A stretch of 32,000 nt of DNA from Candidatus Iainarchaeum sp. (GCA_937968065.1 CALBUD010000051.1:1-32000); one strand, 5' to 3'. Shown: positions 430-32,000, numbered from the stretch's first letter. The notes: generated from the letters alone by a model not told the origin. Numbers and translations: made by a program.

Positions 430-2604
430 TCATTCTTTAATAGATTTATCATTTTGTATATTATTATATACATTATTAATTACTTTTATTTCTGAAGTAT
501 TTATATGATGTTTTGATTTAAAAATGTTAGTAATTAATGATTTTTTAATTGGTTTAATTACATACTTTTCATCATGTTTTATTAAAATATAAACTAAATC
601 ATCTGTAACAGATAATACTTTATTATATTTATTACTTTTACCATCATTATATCCAATATAATCTCCTTTTTGAATTGGAAAGAATTTTCTACCAGTTGAA
701 ATATTATCATGAGTTTTTAATATTTCAGTTTTTTGTTGTCATTCAGCTTCAGTAAATTCATCTTCAAATAAACTTCTGTGAGTTTCTATTGTTTTAACTT
801 TATCTGTTGAAATAAAATTTTTATCATGTAATTTTTTATTTCTATCTAAAAAGTCATTACCTAAAATTGCATTAGGAAATACTTGTTTAACAACTCTTGC
901 ATGTTGTTTATTCTTTCCAGATTTTTTATCAAAATAATCATAGGTTATAGTTGCTCCTCTTATTGTAGCATCTTTTATTAAATCTGGAGGTAAATATTCA
1001 TCTTTATCAGATACTATTATAATAGATTCACTTTTTGCTAATGCTTCAGCATTTTTTTCTTCAATAAGTGTATTTTTATTTTCAAGTTTTCTATAAGTAA
1101 CTTCAACTCTAGATATATATTCTTTTTTAGCATCAGGCTCATCTACTTGTTTTATTCTATTTAATTCTCTATTTAAACTAATACTTGCTCTTGGAACAGA
1201 AATATATTTTCCATTTTCAACATAATAACCAGACATAGTTACTCCTTTACTATTCATAACCATATTATTATATGGAACTATATATCTAGAAATAATATCT
1301 CCAAATTTATCTTTTATATCAACAAGTATTAAATCTTCTTCAAAATTAATATTATTTCTAAGATGATTATATATATCTTCTGGAGTAGATAATAATTTTG
1401 TTATTTTTTTACCATAATAATAATCTCTTACTGAAGAATCAATTAAAGGTAATATCGAATTAGATTTTTGTAATTTTGCTAATTCAATATCTTCTTTTAC
1501 TTCGTTTATATATTGTTCTGATTCTTGTTTTTGTTTTGCTGTAATTTTAGATTCAAGTTTATTAGAATCCATTAATCTAAATAATATATGAATTCCTTTT
1601 TTAATTGAATTAATATTTTCTTCTTTTGATATAATTGGAGCAAGTAAATCTACTAATTTATTTATAGTAGTTTTAGCAGAGTTTTTATATCTAAATATTT
1701 TATTAAATTCTGGATCAATAAATTCATTATCTTCAGTAAAATGACCAATAAAGAATTTTTCTACATCTAAATCTGTTAAATCAATTCTTAATTTTTCATT
1801 TAATGAAGCATTATATTCTGTAAGTATTTCTAATAAATCATCTTTATTTATTTTTGTAGATATAGATTTAATTAAACCCATAAATAAAGATAAATCATTA
1901 TTGCTATTATGAAAAATTAAATGTCCTTTAACATTTTCATCTTTTACAACAACTGCATCATAAGTATCTGAGTCAAATTCTAAATTAAAAAATACTTGAG
2001 TTTTTCTATCATCTCCTTTATAATAGTTATTTATTAATTTTTTAATTAATTTTACTCCTTCGTGATTAATTGAAAGATCTCTTAAATCTTTTTCTTTGTC
2101 TGATAAATCATTAATTATATCTAAAGGAGAATTTACACCCTTTAAACCATTATAATTTATTTTAGATAAATATTTCTTTTGAATTGGATCATTTAATTTA
2201 TCTAAGAAAGTATTAAAAGTAATTTCAGTATATCTAGTTGATTTAGGTCCTTGATATAAAATTTTATCTGATTTATAAAATACATTTTTTCTTAATGCTT
2301 CAATTAATCCTACGTTTCTACTAGAACCTTCAAGTAATCTATTGAGATTATTAATTAAAGTATCTTTTTTAGATTTTTTAATAATAGATTTTATTACACC
2401 TCTTTGAAGTCCTGTATCAAATTCTAGTATTTTATCTATAAGTTTAGAGTCATCTTTTATTTGTTTACTGACTTCATAAAAAGATTCTATTTCTTTTTCT
2501 AGACTTGCATATAAGTCTTTATCAGAATCATTTATAGGTACAAGGCTAGCGGGCACTTTAACTTGCCCGCCGCCTGGTAACTTAATATAATAATAACATG
2601 CCAT
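430..2604 (-). CDS. Hypothetical virion-module protein (about 724 aa with TGA 739-741 read as Trp); 3' end uncertain
   Basis: ATG 2602-2604 overlaps the TAA of the upstream gene (TAATG). The ORF-track fragment 739..2604 ends at TGA. The same frame then stays free of TAA/TAG for a further 103 codons of non-repetitive sequence (..ILKTHDNISTGRKFFPIQKGDYIGYNDGKSNKYNKVLSV..) in about 20% GC DNA. The next TGA is at 430-432, and the first TAA (328-330) lies inside the synthetase fragment. The N-terminus is MACYYYIKLPGGGQ. Confidence 0.6.
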
Positions 2605-5600
2605 TAATCGCAGATAAAATTGATTAATAAATTTCTACTTTTCAATATTGATAAAATATTATTTGTTATAATATATTTAGAACTATCTTTAATTGTACTT
2701 TCTTCTATAAGAGTATTAATTGGAAAATTTCCATTCTTTAATACAATTTCTTTTCCTGATTTTTCCAATCTAAGTCTACCTTTATTATGTAATAACAAAA
2801 ATATTATATCTTGTTCTAAGTATTTTTCTAAATTATTTTTTAATGTTTTTTCTTCATCAGTTTGAGCATCCATTTCAATATCAAATACTTTAATTTTTCC
2901 TAAATCCACATTACTGTAAAAATTTAAGAAATTATAACCTAAAGTATTTTCATCTTTAATATAATCTTCAAACAAAGGAGTCAATCGTTTATCTCCATAA
3001 CTTTCATTATTAACTATAAGATTGTATAAATAAAATAAATCTTTATATTTAATAAGTCTGCCTTCTGCATTTCTAATTTTATAATTATCATTTATAGTAG
3101 AATCAACTTTATTAAAATTACTTAATAGTTCTTGAAACTTATCTATATTTATTGGTGAATTTAATTCATTAATTGGGAAAGTTGAAGTTATTTGAGTTGT
3201 TCAATGTCCTATTGAATTTCTAAGACTACTTAATTTTAAATTTTTAGCCAAGGGTGAATCTGATTTTTTTAATATTTCAAATATAACATTTTCCATTAAT
3301 ATTTTAAAATTAGCTATTCCATAATCAGTTTTTAAATCAATTACAAAATCTGTATTAGGAGTAACTACTTGAATATCATCTGGATATAATTCTGGATTTT
3401 TTTGAATATCTCCAATAGCTAAATTTTTAGCATTATTTGATTTATAAAATATTACAGATTCAATACCAGATGTTTGTATTAATTTTTTAGCATTAAATCT
3501 AATATGATCATTGTCTGTTTGTTTTAATCATTTTGATATAGTAAATTTATCAAAAGTAACTAAAGCTCTACTTAAAATAAGATCATTTATTTTTATACCA
3601 AAAGCATTATTTCCAAATCTTCCATTTAATACACTATTATTTAAATCAAGAATTTTTTCAATATTATCTTTAATAATATCTCTTGAAGTTGAGAAAGCAA
3701 AATTATATTTAGCAGATACTAAACTTAATGTATTATGAATTGTACTAACTCCAGAAACCATTGCTTTAAAGTGAGGAGAATTTTCTATTACATCAAAAAC
3801 ATTAATTGTATTTTTAAATAAATTATAATACTCTATTGTTGCTTTTCTATAATCATCATTTGCTTCATCCATATAATATCTAAAATCAAATTGACCTCCA
3901 ATTAAACTAACAGTTTTAGTATCAGGTTTTCCTTCTTTAGTTATATAATTAACTTTTATAGAATTTGCTTTAACTAATACTTCTTTTACATAATTACTTA
4001 CTTCATTTAAATAAAATTCTTTTTCTTCTTTAGTTTGTGCATTTTCTGCTAATTGTTTATTTTTATCGTCTTTTAATTTAAGTAAAGAATTTGATTCTAT
4101 AATTTTTTTAATTAATGTTGTTGGAACTTTATTAATTTCTATTAATTCATCTCATTTTGCAGGATTTCTTAATAAAACTATTTGTCTATTTAAAACAGAA
4201 TGTTCTCTAGCATACATACCAGATTCCAAATTAGATAAGAATCTATTTAACTCATCAACATTAGCAGCAGTTTTTTGATTTACTTTTAATATCTGAGCTA
4301 AAAATTTAAATTCTTGAGCACCTTCATATATTTCTCTAAATTGTTTTACTTCTTCTTCTTGACCTTCATTTTCTTGTAAATATTTAGTTAATAAAGCATC
4401 AACATAAACAGATTTAGATGATTTAAAAATATTACCTCTAATATTATTACTTATATATTTTCCTATTGGAGAATTCATATAAAGAGCAACATCTTTAATA
4501 CCATAACCTAAAGACATCAAATATAAATGCATAGATGCTAATTCAACTACCGCATTAATTTTTGACATAACTAACTCTTTAGCGTTATCAGTTGCTGCAG
4601 AAATAATACCTGATATTTCTAAAGCTGCCTGAATTTCAACATCAATTTCAGAAAGTTGTTGTTGTAATTCATCATAACCATAAATATTGAATATAGTATT
4701 CATATATTCTTGGCTTACATTAGTATTAGCTATTGTATGAATTAATTTTTTATTACCATTAATAGTAAATTCTTTTCTAAATACTTTATTATCATTATAA
4801 AAATTTATAGCTTCCTTGTCTATTAATACATCATTTTTATATAAATGTGTGTATCAATTATTATAATAATTACTTAAAGCCAAGAATACTTTTTGACCAT
4901 TTGCTCCAATACCTACGTCAGCTTTACCAACAGAAGCATCTTCTTGTTGTTTAAATGGTGAAATCCAATCTCAATTAGAAAGTAAATCTTCAGTATATTT
5001 TAATTGTTCTTTAGCAGCTTCAGCAGCTTTGTGTATAGAATCTATGCTAATTGGTTCAGAAGCAAATAAGAAATTACTTGGAGTACTAATGATTTCTTTA
5101 ATTTTAGATACAATAGAATTTCTAATAGCATTTCGTTTATAAATATATTCTGTACTTGTATTATGTTTATTTATAATATTTATATATAAATCAATAATTT
5201 TAGAATTATTAGCATATAAATTTTGATTTACAACTAAAGTATTATTAGTTTGTTTATCATCATTATTATTAGATTTTCTTAATACAGATATAAAATCTCT
5301 TATAATACTTAAAGGAAACATTGAAGATAATTTTTCAGGATCAGTTTCAGTTATATTATTTGATTCAATAAATTGAATAAAATTACTTATTTCTGTATCT
5401 ACATTATCTATGTTTGAACCTGAATCAACCGTTATTTCTTTACCGTTAGGTAAAGGAATTCTTTCTAAAATATCTAATTCTTCTTTAGTACTATAATCAA
5501 ATAAAGGAGTTCCTACTTCATAATGACCATTTTTATTAAATCCATATCCCATCATATAAGATTTATCAATATCAAAGTCAGAACCTTGATATCAAATTTG

Positions 5601-8600
5601 AAATATAGATACATAAGCATCATTTGATTCAGTATTAAAATATGCAACATTTTTCATTGTCATGAACGATTGCATAGATTGAGCAGGAATACGAGCCGAT
5701 ATTGTTTCTAAAGATTTTTGCCAGCTTGCAAATTTTTTATTAGATAATGTTTGTAAAACTGTTTGTATATTTTTAGATAACCAAGAAGAATCTAAAACAT
5801 CAGAATCTCTTTTTCTATAATTATAAAATTTTGAAAATATTTTAAAAGTTTCTTCATTTATATTTATAGGTTGATTATTTCTATTTATAGTATTAGTAAT
5901 TAAATCTTTATTATCATTATTTAATAAAGGAACTATAGCAGAAATATCTTCATCAAATGATCTAATAAAATTCCATAAAGAATATTGAAGATTTACATTT
6001 AATTGTCTAAATTTATTTGTTTTATTAGTTGCTTCATCTACAACTTTAACTTCTTTACTAATTTTTACATAAATAATATCAACTCCATTTTTATGAACTA
6101 CTTTTGAATTTTTAGGTTTTGTATATAAAGTTCCTCCAGTTGAAGAAATTCTTCTTAATTCTGTTTCTCCAGTTTCATCATTTGTTTTAGAAACAAATAA
6201 TTTAAGATTATCTTGTTCAATAGGTAAATCATGTACAAATTTAATATATACATTAGGATTTCCTTCAGATAATACAAATTTTAAATCAGCATTTGTATCA
6301 TCTTCTTTAAAATTAGATTCTAATTGTTCAATAAAATATTCAGGTCCAGTAACTTCGTTTATTGATTTACCTTTAATATCAAATGCTGAATATATTTTAG
6401 GTAATATTACTTCTGCAGGAATATGATTATAATTTTCAACTCTAACAGTATTTAATTCATTATATAATTTTTTTGCATTTTCTCACGGAGTAGATAAATT
6501 ATCTCCTTGTGGAAAATATATATTAAAATCAATAGGTAAATTAGAATTTGTTCTAGGAATCATTATTCTTCCTGAATCTAATAATTGAGTATTACGTTTA
6601 GTTCAAGCATTTAATTTTTTATCTAATTTATCAAATGATTCGTCTGTACCATTTAAAGGAATTTTAGCTCATTCAGCAAAAGATGTAAGATGTTGTAAAT
6701 ATTTTGGATTAATAAAAGTTTTATCTTTATCAGCCTTTTTAAAATTTTCTTGAAAAGTATTTAAAACAAATCTTAATTTTACTGAATCTAAATCAAATTT
6801 ATTATAATAAATTCCATTTACTGTAAATGTAGTTTCATCAGGTTTTAAATCTCTCGGAGCATTATATATTTTAACAACTTGATCTGATAAACTATTTACA
6901 TTTGTTTTAAAATTATAATATTTTTCAAGTGTATTTAAAGTAACAGGTTTACCATCAATTAAAATAGTATCTCAAAGATTAACTTCACCTACTGTTATAT
7001 TATCATTGGGAAAAAATGTTTCTAAATATTTATCTAATATTTGATTATTTGAAAGAACTTTAACATCAGGAAGACTAGTTCCTCATTTAAAAGCTAATTT
7101 TCTTAATTCACTTTGTTTATATATTTTTCCATCTTTCCCTTGATATAATTGAACTATACCGTGAGAAGGATTTATGACAGCACCAAGACCAGGATAATAA
7201 CGAGTTATAAATTCATTATTCATTTTTGTAATCATCTCTCTAGTAAAATCTCTAAAGAAGTGTTGATTACTAAACGGTAGTAATTGACCTATTCCAAAAG
7301 TTTCAGCTATTGTTTTTGCTAATGTTGTTCCTTCAGAATTTGCTAAATTATATGCAAATTGTTTAGATAAAACTGTATAAAAATCATTAATTTGTTTTTC
7401 AGTTAAATTATCAGAACTAGAATAATATTTTTTAGAAGATTCTTTTATTATTCTTGCTATATCTTGATATACTTCATTAGCTAAATAAGCAGTTGTAGGA
7501 TTTTGAGCAAGAGCAGATATAATCTGAGTAATTTCTTTTATTTTAGATTCATTTGCTGAGTGATTAGCATCTAACTGAGGTCCAATATAATCATTTTTAA
7601 ATGTAGTGTAAGTTAATCTTTCATTACTTTCTCATAATCGAGAAGGATTTAGATTAATTTGTCCAGATTTAAAAGAACTACCATTAGATATAAAATGAAT
7701 CATTTTATCTTTTAAAATATATTTTCCATCATTATCAACATAAGATGTTACTAAATCATATATTAAATCATTTGATCCTTCAGAAAATTCTAAATCTTCT
7801 GTAATAGTATCAGCTCCTCCAAATGCTTTTCATATATCAAATAAATTTTTTACTTCAGTCTCGACAATTGGTTTAGAAAGAATACCATTAAATTGTTTTG
7901 TATCAGGATTATAAGAATTACCTAATATAACAATTTTACCCTTAGAAATAGCATAATTATTTATTTTATAATAATTTCCATTTTTATAAAATCCTATAAA
8001 TGGTAATTCTTTTGAAGTATATTCTAAATCTGAAGGTAAATCAAATGCAGATAACATTTGATCTTGTTTATTTAACATATTAACTTCAGATTTTGAAGAA
8101 TCTCTAATTACTTCATTTGTTATTACAAATTCAGCATCCTTTTTAAGAGAACTTCCATAAGGACTTATAAAAGTACCAATTTCCTTTTTAGTACCTTGAT
8201 AACTTTTACTTGGAAAAGATTCTTCAATCATTCTAGAATAAGCATAATTTATTCAAGTTGATCCATCATGAATATCTTGGGTATGAGTTTTTCCAGATAA
8301 ATTACCTAACTTTGCACTACGATCTTGTATAATTGCTCCATTAATTTTATCAGGAACACCTAATTGATAATTCTTAATAGGAATTTCATAAGTAGCTGTA
8401 AAAGATACATTACGCTTACTCATGTTAGGAAGTCTAAAAGACATTTCTTTAAAGTACTCTGTTCAATGAAGTTTATTTTTATCTATATCACCTTTTTTAA
8501 TATCTTTATCAGATAAAAATTTAGAATCAATAAAATTATCTCCCCTAAATTTTAATTTAGATTCTTTATCTTTTGATTTAAAAGGGTGCATATATTCTGG

Positions 8601-11600
8601 TTTAGTAGTAATATATAAATATTCATGTTTGAATAAATTGTTTACTCATAAACCTCTTTTTAATAAAGGATTTAATAAACCTGTTTTAGATTTAATTAAT
8701 ACTCCTTCTCCTTTAACAACAAAATTAGTCTGAAAAGATTTTTTATCAATTCCGAAAGTAGTTAATAAACTATTTAAACTTAAATCTTTTTCTTCCATTT
8801 TATCTAAATCACCAGATGAAAATAGATATTCACTATTAGAATATTTAATTAATTTGTTTATTAAAGAATTTTCAGACTCTTTTACAAAATGATTAAAATT
8901 ATCCTTATTTTCAAATATGAAAAAATTATCAATAATAGGTTGATTTAAACCTAGCCTAATAGATTTTCCATCTTCTGGAGATACATAAATTGAATAATGT
9001 AATTCTCCAGAAATATTAATAGAATCATCGTTAAGTCGTTTAGTTCTAATATGTTCTAATAAATCATTTAAAGTTTTAAATTCTTTTAAGAAATCATTTA
9101 TTTTCTTTATATTACTTTTTATTATTTTTATATCAGGATTAGCAACATTAACATTGCTAATTTTAACTCCTAATTTACTATATTGATCAAATATATTTCT
9201 TACTACATCTCAGTAATAATTATATGATTGAGTTCTAACTAATTCTAATAAATTAGTTTGAGTCATTACATTTTTACCACTATTATTACCTATAATATAT
9301 TCTCCGTTATGTTTAATATTTTTATCTATTATCTTATTAACAATAGAATTTTTATCTGAATAATTACCAATCATAACATTTATTCCACCTACTTTTGATG
9401 TAGGTCTAAAAACATCTAAAAAGTCATATTCAAAACTTGCAGTAAAACTTTCTAAAGCTGTTCAATTAAAAGCTGTTTTACTTTTATCTTCATTAATAGC
9501 TTCTAATTTTGTAGAAGTTCCTAATAAACCTCCATCTTGTAAAAATAAATTTCTATATTGTTCAGAACCAGTTTGTTCTAATAAATGTCTTTCTAATAAT
9601 ACATTTCCATCATCAAACATTAAATTTGCAAGTTTAAATGTTGGAATTTTTTCTCCTGTACTTGTAGTAGTAACCATTATAGCTTTCATTGGCTGATTTT
9701 CCAAGAAAATATCTAATATATCTTGAATTTTTTGACTTAATTTAGAAATTACTTCTGATTTAGATTTAACTTCAGCCTTTGTTAAGTCAGCAATATTTTC
9801 TTCATTTTCTTGAATAGCTTCTAAAATACCCTTTTGACCTTCTTCTTCTGATTGTCTAATTGAAACTAAAAAGTCTCTAACATACCTAGCAACTTTTTCT
9901 TTATTCTCTCCCTCATTAAATTTAGGATCTTTTAAAGCTTCCATTAATTTAAATGCTCCTTCTGGTCCTAAATATATACCTAATTTAGCATAAATCATAT
10001 TAGATAACTTTTGAGGAGTATCTGTTTGTTTTTTAATATTTTCAATTTCTTTCTTAATATTCTCAGACTCTTTAGCTGCATTTTCAGATGTAGAAGATAC
10101 TCCAATTCAAAATTGATTAGGAAGAGTTGTTCTTTGAGACAAATAAGAATATATTGAATTTTGTAAGTCAACTCTAGTTGCATTATGAGAGTGCATTTCT
10201 TGAAGTTCTAACTTACCTGTATTTTGATTATATACTGTATAATTTGCTCCGTATGAATTATTTACTACTTGAGATACTATATTTAAAATTGATCTTTTAG
10301 AATTTTTTTCTTTTGTTGCATTTTTAGTTAAAAAAGAATCCAAAGATCTTAAAACTCCAATTTTATTATTGAAAGTTACTGCATTTCTATTATTATATAA
10401 AGAATCTTCAGATACTCAATTATCTCCATCTTTAGCTTCAAGTATATTATGAATATACCATTTTAACATTCTTAAAGGATCTTTAGAGAACAATGTTCAA
10501 TTTTCAAATCCAAATGGGTGAGTATCTTTAGTATCACCTAATTTAGAAAAATCATCATCTCTTAATTTAATTAATTTATTGAAGTTTAATATTTCAAAGT
10601 TTTTTATAAAAGCAGCTAAAGAATATAAATCTTTTCTATCTAAATATAAACCAGTAAAATCTCCATTATTATCTAATAAAGGAATAGATTCAATAATAGC
10701 ATCAGATAATTGATCGCGAATTTCTTCTACTGATTCTGACATATGTTCTTCAGTTTTCCAATATTCTGTAGACTTTCCTTTAGGAGTTAAAGAATATTTA
10801 CTAGAACTGCCTCCATAATTAAAATCATTAAAATATTTTACGTCAATTTTAATAACATTGTTATAATATTTATAAAGAATATTATCAAAATTAACTAATA
10901 ATATTGCAGCATTATAAGCATCTAATTTTAATCTATCATTTATATTAGATATACTTCCTGTTAGATCAGGTATAATTTGATCAAATATATTTACTACAGC
11001 ATTAACGTTATTTTTTCCTAATAATGTTTCTTCTAATATTTTTAAAGTATCTTTATATAAATCATAGTTTTTAAAGTTACCTCTAAAATCATATAAATTT
11101 GCTATAAATTTATCTTCTTTATAATATTTACTTATGTTATCAATTTTTCCTAATTCTTTTAAATAATCAACAATAGTTTTAAATAATTTATTTTTTAATG
11201 ACTTAATATTATTATTAACATCAAAGTCACCTCTTACATAAGTTTCTATTGGATTTCCTTTTTCATCTTCTTCGGGATTAAATATAACAGCTTCTACAAA
11301 TTGTTGATTTAATCGTTTTTCAAAATATTTTTTAGCAACATGATAATCGCTAAATAAATCTACAATTAAAGGTGAATTAAAAATAGATTTTACATTAGAT
11401 ACTTTTTTAGAAATTACTTTCTTTCTAATTTGAGGATCTGATGCATTAAAATTATAATTTAATCGTTTAAAAACTTTTTCAATTCTATTATAAGAACTTT
11501 CAGTAAATTCTTCTTTTATCTTTTTTAAATTATAATCATTTCCTAAAAGAGAACGCACATATTCTAGTGCGTTCTCTCATGAAGAAAAACTTCCATTTTC

Positions 11601-22332: not shown

Positions 22333-25300
22333 TATTTGAATATCTTTAATAAAGATTTCTGCATTAATTCATTGTTTTTAAGAATAGTTTTATATATTCT
22401 TTCAACATCTTTTTGAGTTCTTGATAATTCACTTTTATATCTAGCTAACTCTTTTTTCTCAGATAAACTTCCACCTTTTGCTCTATAAGAAACTGAACCT
22501 GGCATTTGCATTGCTAATCCTAAATTTCTAAGATTATATTGGTAATTTTCCATATATTCTCTTATTCTATTAAGTCTGGCATCAAATTCTTTTGCAGCTT
22601 GAGATTCTTCAAAAGTAGTTACTGTTTCATCAGAATCATCTTGAGATCATGCTTGTTTAGCTTTTTCTCTAGCTTCTTGAATTTGTTGCGCCTCTTTCAT
22701 TTGTGCTCTATATTCAGGATCAGTCATAGCTGCATAATAATCAGAATATTTTTTATTCCTCTCTTTAATTTGCTTATTTTGAGCATAACCTTGGATAAGA
22801 TTTTGGAAAGCTGCATTATTTGCAAGCATTTTATTAGCATCAACTAAATGAAGTGCTCTTTCACCTTCAGCAGCAGAAGCCATATTTTTAGCCATTGTTT
22901 CTAAATTAACTAACTGAGTTTGTCTATTAGATTGATCTTGTCTTTCTAAAGTTTGTTGTATTTGTTGCTGATCAGCAATAACTCCTTTTTCTCTTAATCC
23001 TGCTCCTTGTCCTTCTGCTGTAAGTCTTGCTGCAAAACCTTTGTCTATATCAGCAATACTTCCTGCCATTCTTTTACCAACTGAAGATAATCTTGCAGCT
23101 TGTGTATCATAAAATGGAGCTAAAGTACTTGATGCTCTAAAATATTGTGGAGCAATTGTAGGTAATTTAAGTATTCCAGCTAATGCTGCTCTTTTTTGAG
23201 ATTCAGCTATTGCTTTATTTGCTTGAATAGTTTCACCATATCCAACTACATTTAATAAATCTGTTTCATTTATATTAGGTAATTTAGACTTAATATCTCC
23301 CAAATTTATTCTTCTATTTTTAATAATGTCGGATCCAGATTGAGGTTCAAACATTTTTCTTTCTGCAACATTCATGTCATCTTTAGTTACTTGATATACA
23401 TCTACTTTTCTTCTTGGAATAATTCCACTATTTTGCATTTTTAATACTCCACCTTCTTTATAACCTCTAAATCAACTTTGATTTAAATAACTGCCAACAT
23501 CGCCACGAAGAATTGCTCTTAATCTTTCATATTCATATTTAGGTAATTTAGATTCTTCTAAAGTCATTATTTTAGACTTACCTGCAGGATTAATTTTAAA
23601 TTGATCATCTATATTAAGATTCTTAATTTTATCAACCTGAGATTTATCAACCAAAGCTTTTTCTAATTCTGATTTAAACTTATTAAATTCAGTTTCATTG
23701 TGAGTTTTAATTGCTTCTTTATCTTTACCAAGTTTTCTTATAGATGATTTTTTAAAATTAGGAGCGTTTATTTCTTTAGTTAATGCAAATTTTTCTTTAC
23801 CTATTTCTAATTGAACTTTATCATTAGTTCCAGCTTTTCTTAAAGTATCAGCTTTTTTAATTGCGCCTTTATTTTTTAAGAAACCTTTTACAGCACCGGC
23901 TCCATAAAATACATTTTTTAAATCTTGCATTTGAACACCTTCTGTACCTGCTTCTGCTGCACCTTTAACTACATTAGCACCAGAATATAATACATTAGCA
24001 CCACCTAATACACCTAAACCTTGAGCAGCACCTTTACTAATTTTCTCCCATCCTGGTAATACACCTATAAGTTTTCTTAATCCTGTAGTTTCATCTAATA
24101 AAATTCTCTTAGCTAAACTAGGATCTTTTGGTACTACTGGTGGTGGTTGCGGTTTAAGAACAAACGGTTTAAATTCTTTAACTTCTTTTGTAATTTTTGA
24201 AGGAGTAAAACCTCTAGTTATATTTTGATCAAAAATAGTTTTTGCAGAATCACTTGTTCCTTTCTTAATTATAGTAGTTGATGTAGTTTTTGGATTAACT
24301 ATACCAGCAGCTTTTAATAAATCTAATTCTTTATCAGTAATATTAGCTGCTTTATAAGTTGATACTGTTCCTTGTTTTGACATTAATTTAGATACACCAC
24401 TAGCAAAATTTTTAGCATCTTCTGTTTTATCAACAACTTTTACTAAACTCTGTAATTTACCAGCTTTACTTGCGGCTTGAGTACCTATTTTTAATGCTCT
24501 TAATCCACCAAGTCCTATTGCACTTAAACCTATAAAACCTAAGTTCATTAAGTGAGTTCCTAAAGTAACATCATCGTCTCCTCTAATATCTCTAGCAATA
24601 TCAGCAACTGTAGTTACTGCTGCACCAGCCATACCAACACCGGGCAATAAAGAAGCAGCTGCACCACCAACTGATAATCAATCTAAGAAATCAGCATCAG
24701 CCATACTACCTCTAATGTCTCTAGTTTTAGATTCTTTAGGTTCTTCTTTTGGTTTATTAGCATACTTATTTAAGTATTCTTGTGCAGTTAATGATGTTCC
24801 AGATTGTGCTTTCAATATACCACCTTTTTTTCTAAGAATTTGCATATTTGGAGATCTAAGTGATTCTCCAACTTTACCAATAACAGATTGATCTTTAGGT
24901 GCTGGTACTTCAGATACTTGTAAATAATTATTTATAATTTTTCTTATAATATTTTTAGTTTCATGTCCAGCAAATCTATCTTGACTTTGTAATTTATCAA
25001 GTAATTCAATATATTTATTACTAGCTTGACTTCTAACTAAATAACTTGGGTCATTTTGTGAAATATATTTTAATTCAGAAATAGTTTTACCAATACTTTC
25101 AGTTTCAGAAGTTATATTACTTCTAAGAATTGCATCTGCTGTATTTAATGTAGCTGTTGTATTTTCAGGTTGAGTTCCTTGTATTGGTTTAAATGGATCA
25201 TTTTCAGAAAGAGTTAAATAATCTAAATATGCCGGTCTTAAACCTTCACCTTCTGCAAATCTTTGAATATCTACATTAACAGGTTCACCATTATCTTTTC

Positions 25301-26591
25301 TAGTATAAACACCATTTTGATTGTATTGTAATTCAATTTCTTTTTTTGTTTGAGGATCTTGTAAAATTAAAGTTTTTGTATAATTAAATCCTTTTTCTCC
25401 TCTTTCAGGAACTCCAAATATATTTCAACCTTCAAAACCAGTTACTTTACCTTGAATTGGTCTAAACCTTTCTCCTTCAAATTGAAATTTGAATTTAGAT
25501 GGATCATAACCTTCAACTCCTTCTTGAAATAATGTAGGAATACCTTCTATATGACTAAAATAAGTACCATAACCAGGTGCATCAGGATCAATATATGTAG
25601 ATTCAAATAATCCTGTTTTACCAATTACTATTTGTCTACCTGATTCATCTTCTAAAACTAATCCTTTTTTAGATATATCTTCTTGTAATCAAGGAGAATC
25701 AATGTTTTTTAATCTATTATCTGCAGAAATTTTAGTAAACCCTTTTTCAACAGCACCAGCAATTACTGAATCAGCATATCCTTGCTGTCTAAGATTCTTA
25801 ATAAATCCTTCAAGTTCATTTTGTTTAGCTTGTTGACTTTCTTGTTTTATCTGTTCTTCAGATTTAGGAAGTAATAATCCTCTAGGATTTCATCCTAATT
25901 TCTGACTTTCAGAAACAAAAGTATCTCAATCATTATTTTCTATTGCACTTAAAATAATTTCTTTATTTTCAACAGGTAAATATTCTCATCCTTCTTTTGG
26001 AGTAGTACCATATTCAGAAACATATTTTCTAGCAATATTCATTACTCTTTTCTTTTTAGCTGACTCATCTTCACCAAAAGTTGCTAAATCTTGTGCTCAT
26101 AAATTCTCTGCTCCTTCTTGTCCACCATATATTGATTTTTGTATATATAATCCAAGATCTCCAATTTTCTTTTTACCTAAATATCCTGCAGCTTTCTTTT
26201 GAGAATCACTACCTTGAGTAGATTTTTTATTTTGTAAATATTCATTAGTTCAATTAGCTATTAATGTATTGACGTTAGATTTAGGTGTAACTTGTCCAAA
26301 TATATTTGTTTTTATTCCTTCTTCACTCCCTGTTCAATCAATACCTTGTAATTCAATTGGAAGTTTACTTGCATCTATTTTATATTTTTGTGTAATTGGA
26401 TCATATTGATATGCTTGTTCAAGTGATCCAGATTTAATTAGTTTTCCTCAATTGGAAGCAGCTTCTCTTGCTGGTTGTTCTGCTTTTGCTGTAAGAATAC
26501 CTTCTCCAAATTTCTTACTTATGAAGTCTTCATAATCTTCATATAAATTTGGCGAAGTACCTCCAGATTGATATTTTTTAACAACTGACAT
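22332..26591 (-). CDS. Large virion/ejection-type protein (1419 aa) with a Gly/Ala-rich hydrophobic segment and a Gln/Ala-rich coiled-coil-like C-terminal part
   Basis: I hand-checked frame 0 from ATG 26589-26591 (upstream TAA 26619-26621) to TAA 22332-22334. There are 12 in-frame TGA codons: 22647, 23472, 24678, 25425, 25689, 25890, 25926, 25986, 26097, 26250, 26334 and 26448. This joins ORF-track pieces 22332.., 22647.. and 23472.. with an otherwise uncalled 2 kb. The N-terminus is MSVVKKYQSGGTS. Confidence 0.75.
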
Positions 26592-26665: not shown

Positions 26666-26932
26666 TTACTTCCTGCTTACTTTTACAAGTTTTCCGCCTT
26701 TTCTGGCATATACAGGTGCTTCTTGAGGAGCTGCTTCCATTCCTGCGCCACCACCTTCTAACATAGCCATAATAGCTTGAGCAAGCATTGCAGCGGCTTC
26801 TGGGCCTAACTGTTGTACGATCTGTTGTGCCATCTGCATTAATTGTTCTTCTGGTCCTGGACCACCAGCACCTGCGCCCGGTGCTGCTTCTGGAGCCATT
26901 GCTCCACCTTCTTGAAATCTTTTTACTTTCAT
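26666..26932 (-). CDS. Small Ala/Gly/Pro/Met/Gln-rich protein (88 aa) with a basic C-terminus; likely an abundant virion or internal protein
   Basis: The ORF runs from ATG 26930-26932 to TAA 26666-26668. It forms a GC island: 93/180 GC over 26701..26880 by hand count. The sequence is MKVKRFQEGGAMAPEAAPGAGAGGPGPEE...VYARKGGKLVKVSRK. It is followed by a hairpin and T-run. Confidence 0.7.
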   Translation of the reverse strand: MKVKRFQEGGAMAPEAAPGAGAGGPGPEEQLMQMAQQIVQQLGPEAAAMLAQAIMAMLEGGGAGMEAAPQEAPVYARKGGKLVKVSRK

Positions 26933-26940: not shown

Positions 26941-27516
26941 CTAGTTTTTTGATACATATTCAGGCTCTGAATCATTTTGAGCCTTTAAAAATTTAAACAC
27001 TCTCTTCCCTAATGCTTTATAGTCACTGTCTTTTTGAGTTACAGCAGCTTTCTTAGCAAACTTAATTAAAGTCTTAGTATTAGGTCTTGAAAAAATTCTT
27101 TCTCCGCCTTCCAATTCCATTTGCGGAGTTCCATCGTCATTTAACACTAACATTTTATCTTGTTTTACTTTTGTATTTGGAGAAAATTCTAATTCATCAC
27201 CTGGTTTTACTCCTGAATTAACATTTAATTCTAAAACAAAAGCTACGTCTTGTTCTGTAAACATTTCTTCTGAATTAGGTTCTCCTTGATAAACTGCTTT
27301 AATATTGAGATCAGTATCTATAAAAATAATATCTAAAGGAATTAAAGTATCTTTCATTCACATAGAAACTTCTTCTGTATCTGTAAAAGAAAATAACATA
27401 CCTTCATCTTGTGGTAAATTTTCTACTCCTTGAAGTCCCTTTTCTCTTTGTTCATCAGTTTCAGCAATACTTACTTTATATGTATTATCACCGATTCTTA
27501 TTTTTATTTTATCCAT
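26941..27516 (-). CDS. DUF192 (COG1430)-family protein with a C-terminal extension of about 75 aa (191 aa)
   Basis: The ORF runs from ATG 27514-27516 to TAG 26941-26943. The translation is MDKIKIRIGDNTYKVSIAETDEQREKGLQGVENLPQDEGMLFSFTDTEEVSM-W-MKDTLIPLDIIFID...VLELN..GVKPGDELEF. This follows the DUF192 pattern (GL.g...l..d.GMLF.f......fWMkNT.iPLDiiFid). The conserved Trp is encoded by TGA 27358-27360. Confidence 0.8.
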
Positions 27517-27656
27517 TTTTTATAATCTATGAAAGAAAGTTTACCTTGATTTTTAAGTACATTTTTTAAATGAATTGCTTCATTTCAATCATTTGTTTCT
27601 AAATGAGTTATATATTTTTTCTTCTCTATATTATAAGTAATAACTCAATATATCAT
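27504..27656 (-). CDS. Small hypothetical protein (50 aa)
   Basis: ATG 27654-27656 overlaps the upstream TAA (TAATG). The stop is TAA 27504-27506, giving a 13-nt overlap with the DUF192 start. There are two in-frame TGA codons (27645, 27585). The sequence is MIYWVITYNIEKKKYITHLETNDWNEAIHLKNVLKNQGKLSFIDYKKWIK. Confidence 0.4.
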
Positions 27657-27922
27657 TATTTAATAATATTTAAAATTAAATCATTCATAGAAAATAATTT
27701 TCCTCCATCTTTATGTTTTCACTTCCTTGCATTATCTGCAAAAGTAGCTCTTTTTCTTATTGCTGGATTAGGACTATTTTTTCCTTTAGAAATACATTCT
27801 TGTGTAACTTTTCCACCACAATATTCTGTAAATTTTCCTCTATTTTCTGGTTTAATATATATCTTTGATTTCCCACCTTTTTTATAAGATGATATTAATT
27901 CGGGTATAAAATTTAAATTCAT
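27656..27922 (-). CDS. Small basic protein (88 aa)
   Basis: ATG 27920-27922 lies 1 nt after the upstream TAA. ORF-track piece 27719..27922 ends at TGA, and the frame continues to TAA 27656-27658. The sequence is MNLNFIPELISSYKKGGKSKIYIKPENRGKFTEYCGGKVTQECISKGKNSPNPAIRKRATFADNARK-W-KHKDGGKLFSMNDLILNIIK. Confidence 0.65.
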
Positions 27923-27923
27923 A

Positions 27924-29171
27924 TTATTCTACTTGTTCTAATAACCCTGTGTTATCTTGCGTATTTTCTAATATTTCGTATACAAGTATTTTACCTGCTT
28001 CAATAGCTGCATCTTCGTCTCCTCTTTCAAATTTTTTAAGTAACTGTTCTATTTGATTAGTTAATTTTTTATGAAAGATAATTTCATTTACTTCTATTTC
28101 AGCATGTTGTTTTACTTCTCCACCTTCTTCAAATGTTACAACGGGAATCCCTTTATTAGTAACATGTTTTGCTATTTCTTCTGGTAAATTATGTTTTCTT
28201 GCATGTAATACTCCACTTGGTATAACATTTACAGGTTCTTTTGAAATAACTTCAACTACTCCACCTTTTTGTAATTTTAATAGATTGTGATTAGCTTTAG
28301 CTTTTATATTCTTTAAATCTAATAATTTAACACCAGATTTTGCAGCAAGAATATTAGTTGTTTGTCCACCTAAAAGTTGTTGTCTATTTTTATTAAGTAT
28401 ATCTTGAGTAGATGTCATAGAACCTAAAATATTTTGTTTGTTTCTATATCCTACGTCTGATGCTCTTGCTAATATACTTTGATAATTTTTAACATTTTGG
28501 TTTATTCCTTCTGGTCGTCTTGATTTTTTATTAAATAATCTACCTAATCCAGATATTTTTTTACCAGCTAAATCAGCTACATAATCTCCAGTGTATCCTG
28601 AACCAACATTAGTTGCTTGAGTTATATCCTGTTTATCTGCTGTTTTTCCTGTTAATTGGTTTATAGCATGTGCTGCGGTTAAACCTCATCCTATTGGATT
28701 AGATGCACCTAATAATAAAGGTGCTGCTATACTTGCATATTTTAATGCTTTATCTCCAGTATTTTTAATATCTGCTTCTCTTCCAACACCAGTAAAACTT
28801 AATGCTGTAGAAGCTAATCCTGTTATTCCTCCAATTCCACCAAGTGCTTTTAATGCTCCTGCTCCTGCAGCACCTAATTTACTTGCTTGTGCTCCAATTA
28901 CTGTCGAACCTCTATTAGTTACTGCTCCAAATGCATCTGGAACTGCTTTACTAAACACTGAAGGTGAAGCACTTTTAAAAGTATTAAATGCTTTTACACC
29001 CTCTTTTACTCCTTTAGCAGCCTGATAAAGTTGGGGAGCTGTAGCAACAGCCATCCCCAACCAATCAGTTTTTTTGTTACCAGATGAAATAACAGGAGAG
29101 GAATATAAATAAGGAGATTGAAACATACTTTGATTAAACCAGTCAATTGACTGTAATGTATTTTCATCCAT
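27924..29171 (-). CDS. Hypothetical virion/ejection-type protein (415 aa) with a Gly/Ala-rich hydrophobic segment
   Basis: The ORF runs from ATG 29169-29171 (3 nt after the upstream TAA) to TAA 27924-27926. One in-frame TGA (28686) joins ORF-track pieces 27924..28418 and 28686..29171. I hand-checked the 28419..28685 gap and found it free of TAA/TAG. Confidence 0.75.
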
Positions 29172-29174
29172 AGT

Positions 29175-32000
29175 TTATGCGTAACTTATTGTAAATAATG
29201 TTCTAATTGCGTTTATAATAGCGTATTTTTGACCATTATATTTTACTCTTATTTTAATATACTTGTCTCTCAATTTCATTTCGGAATTATTAGTATATAC
29301 TAAATTTGACCCCGATAAATATCCATATTTGAATGTTATAGGTTGAATTTGAATATCCCATGAATCCTCTACATATTGCATGTTTCCTCTTAATCTTCCA
29401 ACTTGTTTAATATCCAATCCTTTTTGATATATAGTTACTAATTTTTCTTTAGTTTTGTTATGTTCTCTAATTGTTAAATCTCTTACAACATTTGGAACAT
29501 CTGGTCAATTCGGATTAAATACATTAATATCTCTACACCAAATAAAAGGTAATTTGTTTACAGATGGATTTTGTAACAAGTAATTTCTATAATTATTTGA
29601 TAATTGAGCTTTTATTGTTTGAGCATTTCCTATACTTTCAGGAGGACTTAGTGAATAAATAGTATCTTTTAAATAATTTCACTCAAATCCTTCACCTACA
29701 ATTTCATATTCAAGTGAATCTGGTTCAGCTCAATTAGAAATAATTTTCAAATTATCAAATATCTTTTGAATACCTTGTACTTCCGTAACAACAAATTCAT
29801 ATTCAAAAGGATGTTGTTCATCATACCAAAAGGTTGGTTTAATAATTCCAGTTTCTTCTAGTGTTCCAGCGAATCCGTGCTTATATAGTATTGAACCTCT
29901 ATTCGTATGAATTTTTTCATTTGCAAATGTATAAAAAATATTATTAATATTTTCCGAAAATTCAGGAAATCATGTATATTGTGTTACTCATTTATTTTGA
30001 AGTTCATTTCAACATAAATGTCACTTTTTATTTCCATATATAAATACAAATAATACATCATGCTTAAATGCGTTGAAGTGACTCTTTATTACATATTGAC
30101 TTACTGTTTTATCTCTATCTGCAATTCCTAAATTTATATTATCATTTAAAAACTTCTGAATTTTAAGATCTGATATCAATTCAAAAGTATCACCATTAGT
30201 TCTTCATATTTTTTTAGCAACAGTATCTAAACCATATACAAATCTTGGAGTTTTTATAATACTTTCTGATCATAAAGAACCAAAAGTATCAGATAAAACT
30301 TTAGGATTTTTAGGTAATACTGTATCAGTATTTATATAAACATTTTCTCCAGAAGCATTAGTCATCATCGCTCTCTCATTTACAGGAATCATTAATACTC
30401 CATGTTCCATTACAGCAATTAATGAACCAAATCATTCTTCTAATTTTACTAATGATCCATATTCCGAAGAATAATCTTGATAATTCTGAGATTTAAATAC
30501 TCTATTTTCATTAACAAATGATGCCTCTTGTAAAATATCTGAATAATATATTCTTGTACTAAAATTAGTTTTTATAAAAGGAACATCTGGAATTTCAAAA
30601 TAAAATTTATTTCCAAGTGAATAACTTATTCCTGAATTAATAACATTTGATTCAGGTAATTTATTCTCAGGTTTAGCGGATTGTAAAGGATAAAAACTTC
30701 TTTTCATTTTATGCAATGCTTCTTCTGCAGGTCTAGAGAAATCTACATCTCTCATTGCAAGATTAACATTAGAACATATTTTAAAAGTTATTCAGTGTCC
30801 AATAGGTACTGCATTTACATCAGCTCTATTTATTTTAGTTGCACCAAAAGTACCATTAGCTTCAGAAAATTTCTTAAAGTCTTTTGAATCAGGCATTGTA
30901 AGTTTAGCAAGTGATATATCTTTACCATCTACCTCTGCTGTTTTTCAAGTAAATAAATCTAATACTTTTTTATATGATGCTGTTTCTGTTCCTCCTGTAA
31001 TAATTCCATCTGTTGAATCTACAATTACATTACCTCCAGAACCTCCTTGCATTATTTTTGTTGTTTCGACTCTATAATTTTTATACCAAGTATAAGGATC
31101 AACAATTTGATTATTAGTTGGTAATTCAGGATCAGTAAAATTTCACATTACTCTATGAGTATATGTATTTATATAACAGTCACCTCTATAAATTAGTTTA
31201 GTTTTATCATTTGATAAATCATTTCAAGTCATTCTATCACTTACAGGTAAGAATGGAGAAGAATCGTTATATCTAACTCTAAAATAATCTTTTCACCTAT
31301 TTGGGAAATCATAATTTTTTTGAAAAATATTATAATACTTACCAAATTCTAAATTATTATAAGTACTTGCTATATAAGTATTAAATTCACCCCTTATTTT
31401 AGTTACTCCTTCTGATCAGGTTGCTTCACTAATATTTACATCAGTTCTTAAATCTTCTAAATCCCCATTTACTGGATCTACATGTTTTCAAGAAATTTCA
31501 GGAGTGCCTGCTCTTGAACAGAACTTACTATCATTGTTATAAATCAATTCTATTCCTGGTTCAATTAAAGATAAATTAGAAAAGAAAGTACTATCGTCAA
31601 GTTCATCTCTTTTTATAAGATTTCCTAAAGTAAATATCTTTCTATCATTCATGTTATCTGTAAATGATCCAACTAGTGGATTATGATTAAATAACTTAAG
31701 AGTAAATTCAGATGAATTAAAGAAATTATTAAATACATACGGTCTGATAGAAGCTTCTGGACAGATTAAAGCATTATTATTTATATCTTCTACTTTGAAA
31801 AAACTTCTACCTAATTTAGGTTTTGAATTTGAATCTTTAGTTAAAAAAGATTCAGTAAAATATTCAGATGAAGTAGTTATTCCTTCTGTATAAGTTCCTT
31901 TAATTAAGGGAGTAAATGCTTTTTGTGAAGTAGCGATTGCTAAACCTTGAGTTAATAATGTAGGTATTCTTTTTTGTCTTACTATAAAAAATCCTTTCGT
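29175..32000 (-). CDS. Large Trp-rich structural protein, 5'-partial (at least 941 aa in the window); possibly a tail or tail-associated component
   Basis: I hand-checked frame 0 as open from the window edge (32000) to TAA 29175-29177. There are 17 in-frame TGA codons: 29505, 29679, 29730, 29970, 29988, 30009, 30021, 30204, 30270, 30432, 30792, 30945, 31143, 31224, 31293, 31416 and 31488. Only 4 Trp codons are TGG. Its position upstream of the cargo/RNAP block suggests a structural role. I recognised no specific family. Confidence 0.7.

What the first reader, a model, noticed from the sequence alone, without database searches (positions are those of the whole stretch)
430..32000. Systematic TGA-to-Trp recoding (code 4) of a 31.6-kb gene block next to a gene that terminates with TGA
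Seen directly:
- Every low-coordinate end of the minus-strand ORF-track fragments that I checked is TGA.
- The same frame continues on the other side of each one. I traced frame 0 by hand for about 9.0 kb (2604..11663) and about 8.8 kb (11673..20483), and other frames for 4.3, 2.8 and 1.8 kb. None contained a single TAA or TAG, in DNA that is about 75-80% AT.
- In total I count 79 in-frame TGA codons.
- Real gene ends are TAA (2604, 11673, 20485, 22332, 26666, 27504, 27656, 27924, 29175) or TAG (26941).

The amino-acid identity is supported by the DUF192 gene. TGA 27358-27360 sits exactly at the conserved Trp of the fWMkNT.iPLD motif.

TGA is the preferred Trp codon: 17 TGA versus 4 TGG in 29175..32000. 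This points to a settled reassignment rather than leaky read-through.

The flanking acyl-CoA synthetase fragment uses TGG for Trp and stops at TGA. Stop-codon-recoded phages, including crAss-like lineages, are described in the literature, so the phenomenon is known. Even so, standard annotation of this locus would be almost entirely wrong.
Basis: partly seen in the sequence, partly recalled or inferred. Interest (0 to 1): 0.75.

Follow-up and report, generated by a model that had tools for sequence, protein, structure and literature searches.

The report
TGA-as-tryptophan crAss-like phage genes, chimeric flank
Almost the whole window is the late (virion) gene block of a divergent crAss-like phage that reads TGA as tryptophan, a phenomenon already well described, and the neighbouring "gene that stops at TGA" is a cut-off bacterial gene fragment joined to the phage DNA, most likely by an assembly error.

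Summary
Ten co-oriented minus-strand genes cover 99% of nt 419-32000. They contain 78 in-frame TGA codons and no internal TAA or TAG, and they end in TAA (once in TAG). Two of the ORFs are about 3,000 codons long.

TGA means Trp here. In relatives, the codon opposite a window TGA is most often TGA, TGG or a Tyr, Leu or Phe codon, and rarely Gly. Against a standard-code relative, 10 of 43 masked sites align to Trp, where the background Trp frequency is 0.7%. The TGA in the DUF192 gene aligns to the conserved Trp of two PDB proteins.

The genes are from a crAss-like phage: a muzzle protein (PF25731), a giant protein with a DFDID motif, and synteny with contigs that carry Crass_capsid. TGA-to-Trp recoding of crAss-like late genes has been published since 2021, so this is a new member of a known kind.

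The contrast with a flanking "TGA-terminated" gene fails. Nt 1-418 are 99.3% identical to a Patescibacteria MAG gene that continues for 34 more codons and ends in TAA. The adjacent phage gene is also truncated, at about 730 of about 1,250 codons. The two sequences share a 22-nt overlap at 397-418. I read the junction as a chimera, most likely produced by assembly.

The parts
1..418 (+). 3'-truncated fragment of a long-chain acyl-CoA synthetase gene (AMP-binding C-terminal domain). It is bacterial (Patescibacteria MAG-like) DNA and not part of the phage.
   Evidence: Pfam PF23562 AMP-binding_C_3, E=1.4e-14. BLASTN gives 99.3% identity over window 1-418 to L009 5001-5418 (DLNA01000023.1, Patescibacteria group bacterium UBA7522) and no similarity beyond. 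Homologues and the MAG orthologue continue about 34 residues through the conserved TPTxKxxR motif; the orthologue ends in TAA. GC is 33-45% here against 12-25% just after.
397..418 (.). Crossover segment, 22 nt (AGAAAATTCATAATTATTAAAA), compatible with both parent sequences. This is the chimeric junction.
   Evidence: Identity to the Patescibacteria gene runs up to nt 418. Protein-level homology of the phage gene to its closest relative (L024) runs down to nt 397 (EYSSFNNYEFS against EYSAFNNYELS). L024 DNA matches 19 of the 21 nt of the seven codons F-N-N-Y-E-F-S (window nt 397-417).
421..423 (+). The TGA that appears to terminate the acyl-CoA synthetase fragment. It is created by the junction and is not a natural stop codon.
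   Evidence: Window ...ATTATTAAAA|CTTGAATATTC against MAG ...ATTATTAAAA|AGCCATTTACGG. The natural stop is a TAA 34 codons later.
397..2604 (-). g1: the N-terminal ~730 codons of a ~1,250-aa late phage protein, cut off at the junction. Sense TGA at 736-738 and 430-432.
   Evidence: Full-length relatives are 1,150-1,290 aa, while the window's own product is 758 aa only because it reads on into antisense bacterial DNA. The homologues in L007 (1,231 aa) and L024 (1,246 aa) continue about 500 aa further and are followed by another gene on the same strand.
2604..11663 (-). g2: 3,019-aa protein with 22 sense TGA. Probable crAss-type virion RNA polymerase, with the motif YQGSDFDIDKS (DxDxD) at about nt 5565-5579.
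   Evidence: Open frame. No Pfam, PHROG or PDB sequence hit. In L007 the homologue is interrupted exactly at QGSDF|DID by a LAGLIDADG-like ORF, which matches what PMC7886860 reports for the DxDxD motif of crAss RNAP genes. The RNAP assignment is an inference.
11673..20483 (-). g3: 2,936-aa protein with 17 sense TGA. It contains a P-loop NTPase or helicase-like domain at about nt 14838-15476.
   Evidence: Pfam AAA_19 (5.9e-6), AAA_22 and AAA_30 at residues 1670-1882. Syntenic homologues of 2,815-2,989 aa in L002, L003, L004 and L024.
20485..22332 (-). g4: 615-aa late protein with 5 sense TGA.
   Evidence: Homologues at 38-48% identity in L002, L003 and L004.
22332..26591 (-). g5: 1,419-aa late protein with 12 sense TGA and 1 TGG.
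   Evidence: Syntenic proteins of 1,302-1,689 aa in relatives.
26666..26932 (-). g6b: 88-aa Ala/Gly/Pro-rich protein with no TGA, so it reads the same under either code.
   Evidence: The exact protein is also found on a 905-bp contig from another run (SRR36073817), next to the two table-11 halves of the DUF192 gene. Homologues in L002-L004.
26941..27516 (-). g7: DUF192 protein of 191 aa, ending in TAG. Sense TGA at 27358-27360.
   Evidence: Pfam PF02643, E=6e-23. The masked residue aligns to Trp in PDB 3pjy (MMWMKNTYLPLD) and 3m7a (FWMRNTVIPLD), and to Trp in the standard-code MT835470.1.
27656..27922 (-). g8: 88-aa protein with 1 sense TGA.
   Evidence: Weak homologue in L004.
27924..29171 (-). 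g9: 415-aa protein with 1 sense TGA and 2 TGG.
   Evidence: Homologues at 39-47% identity in L002-L004.
29175..32000 (-). g10: the C-terminal 941 residues of a 1,420-aa crAss-type muzzle protein (the N-terminus lies beyond the window). 17 sense TGA and 4 TGG.
   Evidence: Pfam PF25731 crAss_MUZ, E=7e-14. PHROG 28748 virion structural protein. Identical to the C-terminus of P0001 (1,420 aa, contig 34,820 bp). More than 1,200 homologues, many on contigs of 50-213 kb.

Best explanation
Nt ~397/419-32000 are part of the late (virion and ejected-protein) gene block of a divergent, AT-rich crAss-like phage in which UGA is decoded as tryptophan (translation table 4). All ten genes lie on one strand, abut or overlap, terminate with UAA or UAG, and use TGA for about four of every five Trp codons.

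By analogy with published recoded crAss-like and other gut phages, the block can be translated in full only once a UGA-reading tRNA-Trp is available. That tRNA is encoded outside the window and supplied by the phage, or less likely by the host. Recoding would therefore act as a lock on late-gene expression. This mechanistic step is inferred, not shown here.

Nt 1-418 are unrelated bacterial DNA: the 3' part of a Patescibacteria-type acyl-CoA synthetase gene. It is fused to the phage DNA through a 22-nt stretch that both sequences share, and the fusion truncates both convergent genes. I read this as a chimeric join, most likely a k-mer-level metagenome misassembly. The apparent TGA stop at 421-423 is a by-product of that join.
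For: Recoding is real.
- Frames free of TAA and TAG run up to 3,020 codons, where the off-frame stop frequency is 9% (P about 1e-124).
- The gene models cover 99% of nt 419-32000.

TGA means Trp.
- Across 154 aligned codon pairs in five related loci, the partner codons of window TGA are TGA 42, TGG 40, Tyr 15, Leu 13, Phe 9 and Gly 3. Window TGG shows the same spectrum.
- In an alignment with TGA masked as X against the standard-code relative MT835470.1 (no in-frame TGA in its giant ORFs), 10 of 43 sites fall on Trp. The background Trp frequency is 0.7%, giving P=5e-13. For window TGG the figure is 4 of 14.
- The DUF192 TGA aligns to Trp in PDB 3pjy and 3m7a.

crAss-like identity.
- PF25731 crAss_MUZ.
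- Relatives are syntenic: Crass_capsid ... muzzle, DUF192, a ~1,400-aa protein, a ~620-aa protein, then a ~2,900-aa protein, and in L024 further ~3,000-aa and ~1,250-aa proteins.
- A DFDID motif, which in L007 is interrupted by a LAGLIDADG-like ORF, as described for crAss RNAP genes in PMC7886860.

Late-block-only recoding in the lineage.
- In L007 the opposite-strand early genes have 0 TGA and 13 TGG, against 37 TGA and 14 TGG in the late genes (Fisher P=1.5e-6). One early gene ends in TGA within an ATGA overlap.
- In MT835492.1 the late strand is TAG-recoded and the early strand is standard.

Literature. 243 crAss-like phages use TAG as Gln or TGA as Trp, mostly in late genes (PMC7886860). 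The code-4 Lera phage carries tRNA-Sup-TCA (PMC12386605).

Chimera.
- 99.3% nucleotide identity to the MAG gene stops at nt 418, and the natural gene ends in TAA 34 codons later.
- g1 is cut at about 730 of about 1,250 residues.
- A 22-nt overlap is shared at 397-418.
- GC changes abruptly at the junction.
Against: - No tRNA or other Rfam RNA lies in the window. No tRNA lies in the late-block loci of the TGA-recoded relatives I scanned, L002-L005 and L007. The decoding agent is therefore unobserved.
- MT835492.1, the TAG-recoded relative, has five tRNAs, and ARAGORN calls none of them a suppressor. A phage-borne suppressor is therefore not guaranteed in this lineage.
- No early genes of this phage are in the window, so the dual-code architecture is shown only in relatives.
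- The host is unknown. A host that itself uses code 4 is not excluded.
- I could not retrieve the 34,820-bp source contig or its reads. Assembly artefact and real recombination at a 22-nt microhomology therefore cannot be formally separated.
- That the phage parent carries the exact 22-mer is inferred from a 51%-identical relative.
Confidence: 0.85

Rival explanations
1. The junction is biological. A fragment or genome of this code-4 crAss-like phage recombined into the acyl-CoA synthetase gene of a Patescibacteria (CPR) cell through 22 nt of microhomology, which would physically link the phage to a CPR host.
For: The bacterial side is a close match (99.3%) to a real MAG gene. A 22-nt microhomology can also support illegitimate recombination in vivo. 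Both sequences are AT-rich.
Against: - Both genes at the join are truncated, and the phage is cut in the middle of a late structural gene instead of at a genome end or att site.
- No integrase was found in the 32 kb; I made no explicit search for att-type repeats.
- The phage ORFs are perfectly intact over 31 kb, which argues against a decaying remnant.
- The representative MAG has the gene uninterrupted.
- An overlap of about 21-22 nt is the size of the smallest k-mers that de Bruijn assemblers use (my own knowledge).
- crAss-like phages with known hosts infect Bacteroidota (PMC7886860).
Confidence: 0.07
2. TGA encodes glycine (code 25), as in Gracilibacteria and Absconditabacteria and their phages. 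This reading is suggested by the Patescibacteria flank.
For: The flank comes from a Patescibacteria-labelled MAG. Code-25 phages and prophages of that group are documented (PMC10746230).
Against: Gly codons face window TGA in only 3 of 154 pairs, and in 3 of 43 sites (7%, against a Gly background of 6%) versus the standard-code relative. Trp is enriched about 33-fold. The DUF192 site is an invariant Trp. The 6.5 kb of the MAG that I examined shows no in-frame TGA.
Confidence: 0.01
3. The DNA comes from a cellular code-4 organism (Mollicutes or an endosymbiont) or from a phage of such an organism, so TGA is sense simply because the host's code is table 4 and no code switch is involved.
For: GC is very low (21-34%), TGA is preferred over TGG, and all stops are TAA or TAG, as in Mycoplasma. 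No suppressor tRNA was seen.
Against: - The gene content is crAss-type virion genes, with no cellular genes.
- In relative L007 the early genes avoid in-frame TGA and one terminates with it.
- Sister lineages use the standard code or recode TAG instead, so the recoding is a phage trait that switches over short evolutionary distances, as published.
Confidence: 0.06
4. The TGAs are true stops: the genes are broken (pseudogenes or sequencing errors), or expression depends on occasional programmed read-through or selenocysteine.
For: Under table 11 every gene is fragmented.
Against: There are 78 interruptions, all TGA, with no TAA, TAG or frameshift across 31 kb. The same positions are TGG or aromatic codons in relatives. 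The pattern is shared by many independent contigs. No SECIS or other Rfam element was found.
Confidence: 0.01

Closest known systems
TGA-to-Trp recoded crAss-like phages (Yutin et al. 2021, PMC7886860; the Zeta-group Lera phage, PMC12386605)
   Same: crAss-type structural genes, including the muzzle protein, with in-frame TGA at Trp positions. Recoding is concentrated in the late or structural block. Giant, highly divergent proteins in the transcription-block position, one with a DxDxD motif. Related lineages switch between the standard code, TAG recoding and TGA recoding. Relatives carry homing-endonuclease insertions.
   Different: The sequence is only distantly related to deposited genomes: there is no megablast match, and only two GenBank phage records hit the muzzle protein, at 32-39% identity. 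The closest metagenomic relative is 68% identical in the muzzle protein. No suppressor tRNA can be shown because only the late block is present. Membership of a named group (Zeta or other) was not tested phylogenetically.
Stop-codon-recoded gut phages in which recoding is proposed to regulate late and lytic genes (Borges et al., bioRxiv 10.1101/2021.08.26.457843), with code-change machinery (suppressor tRNA, release factor, TrpRS) as summarised in PMC10746230
   Same: Late genes cannot be translated under the standard code. Relatives show early genes in the standard code on the opposite strand (L007, MT835492.1).
   Different: None of the code-change machinery is visible in this window or in the relatives' loci I scanned.
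Bacteriophage sp. MT835470.1 and MT835492.1 (human faecal samples, unannotated GenBank records)
   Same: They hold homologues, in the same order, of the genes that could be aligned: muzzle, DUF192 and the giant proteins. MT835470.1 also shares the N-terminal K-[FLY]-Q-x-GG signatures.
   Different: MT835470.1 uses the standard code (36% GC). The late block of MT835492.1 recodes TAG, not TGA. Both are only 25-54% identical at the protein level.
Cellular genetic code 4 (Mycoplasmatota and some endosymbionts) and code 25 (Gracilibacteria/Absconditabacteria)
   Same: TGA is a sense codon, and TAA and TAG are the only stops. As in code 4, TGA is the majority Trp codon in AT-rich DNA.
   Different: This is a phage trait that varies between sister lineages. 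It is not a genome-wide property of a cell. It is not code 25, because TGA does not align to Gly.

Membership tests
Code-4 (TGA to Trp) recoded phage gene block | Long ORFs interrupted only by TGA, with TAA or TAG as the sole terminators | tested here: met
   78 in-frame TGA and no internal TAA or TAG in ten genes. Nine end in TAA or TAG; g1 has lost its own end at the junction..
Code-4 (TGA to Trp) recoded phage gene block | TGA positions correspond to Trp in homologues that use TGG | tested here: met
   TGG is the commonest non-TGA partner (40 of 112 pairs). 27 of 67 aligned sites have at least one TGG partner. 10 of 43 sites fall on Trp against the standard-code MT835470.1. The DUF192 site aligns to Trp in PDB proteins.
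Code-4 (TGA to Trp) recoded phage gene block | A tRNA with anticodon UCA (suppressor or tRNA-Trp) encoded by the phage | tested here: inconclusive
   No tRNA in the window or in the late-block loci of relatives. The early region, where the literature places tRNA clusters, lies outside the window and could not be fetched.
Code-4 (TGA to Trp) recoded phage gene block | Early genes in the standard code (dual coding) | not testable with these tools
   No early genes of this phage are in the window. In relative L007 the early genes have 0 TGA and 13 TGG, and one has a TGA stop.
crAss-like phages (Crassvirales and allied groups) | crAss-type structural proteins (muzzle, major capsid protein) in a conserved structural block | tested here: met
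   PF25731 crAss_MUZ on g10. Syntenic relatives carry PF23898 Crass_capsid upstream of the muzzle gene. The capsid gene itself lies outside the window.
crAss-like phages (Crassvirales and allied groups) | Giant transcription-block protein with the DxDxD motif (virion RNAP) | tested here: inconclusive
   DFDID is present in g2 and conserved in L007, where an endonuclease ORF splits it. There is no Pfam, PHROG or PDB sequence match and no structure was predicted.
Code 25 (TGA to Gly) phage of Gracilibacteria/Absconditabacteria | TGA aligns to Gly columns | tested here: not met
   Gly in 3 of 154 pairs and 3 of 43 sites, which is the background level.
Prophage integrated in the flanking bacterial chromosome | Junction at a phage att site or genome end, an integrase, and phage genes intact at the border | tested here: not met
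   The join cuts a late gene at about 60% of its length and cuts the bacterial gene 34 codons before its end. No integrase domain was found in the Pfam scans.
   Homologues, and the 99%-identical orthologue, continue about 34 residues through the TPTLKLRR motif. The orthologue stops at TAA.

The most novel reading that the evidence does not exclude
The join at nt 397-418 is a real in-cell recombination product between a code-4 crAss-like phage and a Patescibacteria (CPR) chromosome. That would imply that this divergent crAss-like lineage replicates in CPR bacteria, not in Bacteroidota.
Probability: 0.05. Interest if true: 0.7.

Novelty: new member of a known kind. Interest (0 to 1): 0.25.

Why it matters
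There are three practical consequences.
- Any table-11 annotation of this contig is wrong, because about 10,500 codons are split into dozens of fragments.
- The contig should not be used to infer a host or a host genetic code, because its bacterial end is a chimeric graft.
- If the contig sits in a Patescibacteria bin, it is contamination.

Biologically it adds a divergent, very AT-rich member to the crAss-like phages that recode TGA in late genes. It also shows, within one small set of relatives, all three states (standard code, TAG recoded, TGA recoded). That supports the published view that code switches are frequent in this group, but it opens no new question.

Tried and rejected
- Retrieving the source contig. 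Exact-protein look-ups of two table-11 fragments and of P0001 found nothing. Only a 905-bp contig from another run carries the 88-aa protein.
- Megablast of 25 kb against GenBank phages gave no match.
- Functional annotation of the giant proteins. Pfam found nothing for g2 and g5, PHROGs found nothing for ten large fragments, and PDB sequence searches of the muzzle protein and the DFDID fragment gave no significant hits.
- Suppressor tRNA. There is none in the window, none in five late-block loci of relatives and none in MT835470.1, which turned out to use the standard code. MT835492.1 has five tRNAs, none a suppressor, and it recodes TAG, not TGA.
- Walking along a relative's contig with an exact DNA pattern returned only ~1.1-kb flanks, so I abandoned it.
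- No terminator-like site lies at the convergent junction.
- P0126, the best protein-database homologue of the acyl-CoA synthetase fragment, lies on a 56%-GC low-coverage contig and gave no context.
- Rejected readings: code 25, pseudogenes or read-through, a cellular code-4 genome, and an att-site prophage. See the rival explanations.

Full report

Yes. The window is 26% GC. On the minus strand, frames free of TAA and TAG span 2604-11666, 11673-20495, 22332-26618, 29175-32000 (running off the window), 20485-22377, 27924-29174, 26941-27519, 27656-27928 and 328-2634. The other two minus-strand frames carry TAA or TAG at about 9% of codons. At that rate, an open run of 3,020 codons has a probability near 1e-124.

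Under table 11 the same frames are cut only by TGA. The longest table-11 ORF is 1.9 kb. With ATG-start models the ten genes cover 99% of nt 419-32000. They hold 77 in-frame TGA, plus one at 430-432, against 21 TGG. They end in TAA, except for the DUF192 gene (TAG) and the truncated g1, which has lost its own end. The figure of 17 TGA and 4 TGG in 29175-32000 is exact. No tRNA and no Rfam family lies in the window.

**2. Which amino acid does TGA encode?**

I tested this at the codon level, so that the result does not depend on any assumed code.

- I aligned the window genes to the syntenic genes of five related loci (L002, L003, L004, L007, L008). The codons opposite window TGA are TGA 42, TGG 40, Tyr 15, Leu 13, Phe 9 and Gly 3, out of 154 pairs. 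Window TGG gives the same spectrum.
- MT835470.1 proved to be a standard-code relative. Its giant ORFs of 2,970, 2,281 and 1,594 codons have no in-frame TGA. With window TGA masked as X before alignment, 10 of 43 sites fall on Trp. The background Trp frequency is 0.7%, giving P=5e-13. For window TGG the figure is 4 of 14. Gly is at background level.
- The single TGA of the DUF192 gene (PF02643) aligns to the Trp of MMWMKNTYLPLD in PDB 3pjy and of FWMRNTVIPLD in 3m7a.

TGA therefore encodes Trp. Code 25 is excluded.

**3. What is the block?**

- g10 matches Pfam crAss_MUZ (PF25731) and a PHROG virion structural protein. It is identical to the C-terminus of database protein P0001, which is 1,420 aa on a 34,820-bp contig.
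- More than 1,200 homologues exist, many on contigs of 50-213 kb. Their neighbourhoods show the same gene order downstream of a Crass_capsid gene. Their genes also fail to translate under table 11.
- g3 has a P-loop NTPase domain.
- g2 has a DFDID motif. In L007 the homologue is split exactly there by a LAGLIDADG-like ORF. This is the behaviour Yutin et al. describe for the DxDxD motif of crAss RNAP genes (PMC7886860). Calling g2 an RNAP remains an inference, because Pfam, PHROGs and PDB sequence searches found nothing.
- GenBank holds only two distant relatives and no nucleotide match.

**4. The flank**

*The bacterial side.* The plus-strand fragment 1-423 is the C-terminal domain of a long-chain acyl-CoA synthetase. 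Aligned homologues continue about 35 residues beyond its end, through a conserved TPTxKxxR segment. A scan of one genome per species found a 99% match in DLNA01000023.1, a MAG labelled Patescibacteria group bacterium UBA7522. BLASTN identity is 99.3% over window 1-418 and stops there. In the MAG the gene runs on as ...KKPFTVENGMLTPTLKLRRQKIEEVYAEEIEKIYQ and ends in TAA.

*The phage side.* The gene on the other side, g1, is also incomplete. Its full-length relatives are 1,150-1,290 aa. The closest homologue (L024) is 1,246 aa and is followed by another gene on the same strand. Alignment to the window ends at residue 736 of that 1,246-aa homologue.

*The overlap.* Codon by codon, phage homology reaches down to nt 397 and bacterial identity reaches up to nt 418. 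A 22-nt stretch (397-418) therefore fits both parents. The relative's DNA matches 19 of the 21 nt of the seven codons F-N-N-Y-E-F-S (nt 397-417). GC falls from 33-45% to 12-25% across the join.

*Interpretation.* Two convergent genes, both truncated and meeting in a k-mer-sized overlap, is the signature of a chimeric assembly. Real recombination at a microhomology cannot be formally excluded without the reads. Either way, the TGA at 421-423 is the reverse complement of the phage codons TCA AGT. It carries no information about a host's code.

**5. How it most likely works**

*Shown.* The late genes need UGA read as Trp to be made at full length.

*Shown in relatives only.* Recoding is confined to the late strand.
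- In L007 the late genes have 37 TGA and 14 TGG, while the opposite-strand early genes have 0 TGA and 13 TGG (P=1.5e-6). One early gene stops at TGA within an ATGA overlap.
- In MT835492.1 the late minus strand carries hundreds of in-frame TAG, 128 of them in one 3,401-codon ORF. The early plus strand is standard.

*Inferred from the literature.*
- The phage would supply a tRNA(UCA) charged with Trp, possibly together with release-factor or TrpRS functions.
- Late proteins would then be made only after that machinery is expressed.
- Sources: PMC7886860, bioRxiv 10.1101/2021.08.26.457843, PMC10746230 and PMC12386605.

I found no suppressor tRNA in any sequence I could reach. Yutin et al. also report imperfect agreement between recoding and detectable suppressors.

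**6. Comparison and novelty**

TGA-to-Trp recoding of crAss-like late genes is established. Yutin et al. list 243 recoded crAss-like genomes, and within the Zeta group different branches use TAG, TGA or the standard code. The Lera phage is a fully described code-4 example in which the muzzle gene is among the recoded genes.

This locus behaves the same way. It differs only in being a distant, more AT-rich lineage. Its closest muzzle homologue is 68% identical. It is a new member of a known kind.

The most novel reading the evidence leaves open is that the phage-Patescibacteria join is real and points to a CPR host. I give that about 5%.

**7. Verdict**

- Interest is low to moderate (0.25).
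- The main practical value is correct annotation under table 4 and flagging the contig end as chimeric.

Noticed in passing
window 397-423: The contig is a graft. Bacterial (Patescibacteria MAG-like) DNA at 1-418 meets phage DNA at 397 onward, through a 22-nt stretch common to both, and both convergent genes are truncated. If the contig is binned with a bacterial genome, it is contamination.
   Followed up: yes
window N-termini of genes ending at 22332, 26591, 26932, 27922 and 2604 (minus strand); also L002, L003, L004, L007, L024, L008: Several consecutive late proteins start with a shared short signature, M-x(3-10)-[KR]-[FLY]-Q-x-GG: MKYNIRKLQGGG, MSVVKKYQSGG, MKVKRFQEGG, ..SSYKKGG, ..IKLPGGG. 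Several also carry a [KR]GG[KS]L element near the C-terminus. The signature is conserved in relatives, including the standard-code MT835470.1. It could be a protease-processing or virion-packaging signal for ejected proteins.
   Followed up: partly
L007 231-9999 (IMGVR_UViG_3300002220_000322): The homologue of the 3,019-aa protein is split exactly inside the QGSDF|DIDKS (DxDxD) motif by a 232-aa ORF with a LAGLIDADG-like sequence (LLIGLLIGDGTI). This looks like an intron or intein in the putative RNAP catalytic motif.
   Followed up: partly
MT835492.1 63.7-118 kb (L020, L021) and MT835470.1 (L008, L016, L017): Two unannotated GenBank relatives differ in genetic code. The late minus strand of MT835492.1 is TAG-recoded (for example 128 TAG in a 3,401-codon ORF), its early strand is standard, and ARAGORN finds no suppressor tRNA. 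MT835470.1 uses the standard code throughout and has no tRNA at all.
   Followed up: partly
window 1-17000 versus 17000-32000: There is a GC step inside the phage block. GC is 21-25% across g1, g2 and most of g3, and 27-34% from the start of g3 to the muzzle gene, with a local peak around the Ala/Gly-rich 88-aa gene at 26666-26932.
   Followed up: no
L004 7277-8221 and 15476-16123; L003 638-1369; L023 15216-15992: Homing-endonuclease-type ORFs (GIY-YIG, HNH, NUMOD1) are inserted between or within structural genes in relatives but are absent from the window. One of them splits the gene upstream of the muzzle gene in L004.
   Followed up: no
L001 (Logan SRR36073817 contig, 905 bp): A short contig from an independent sequencing run encodes the identical 88-aa protein and the two table-11 halves of the DUF192 gene, so the same or a very close phage occurs in another sample.
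   Followed up: no
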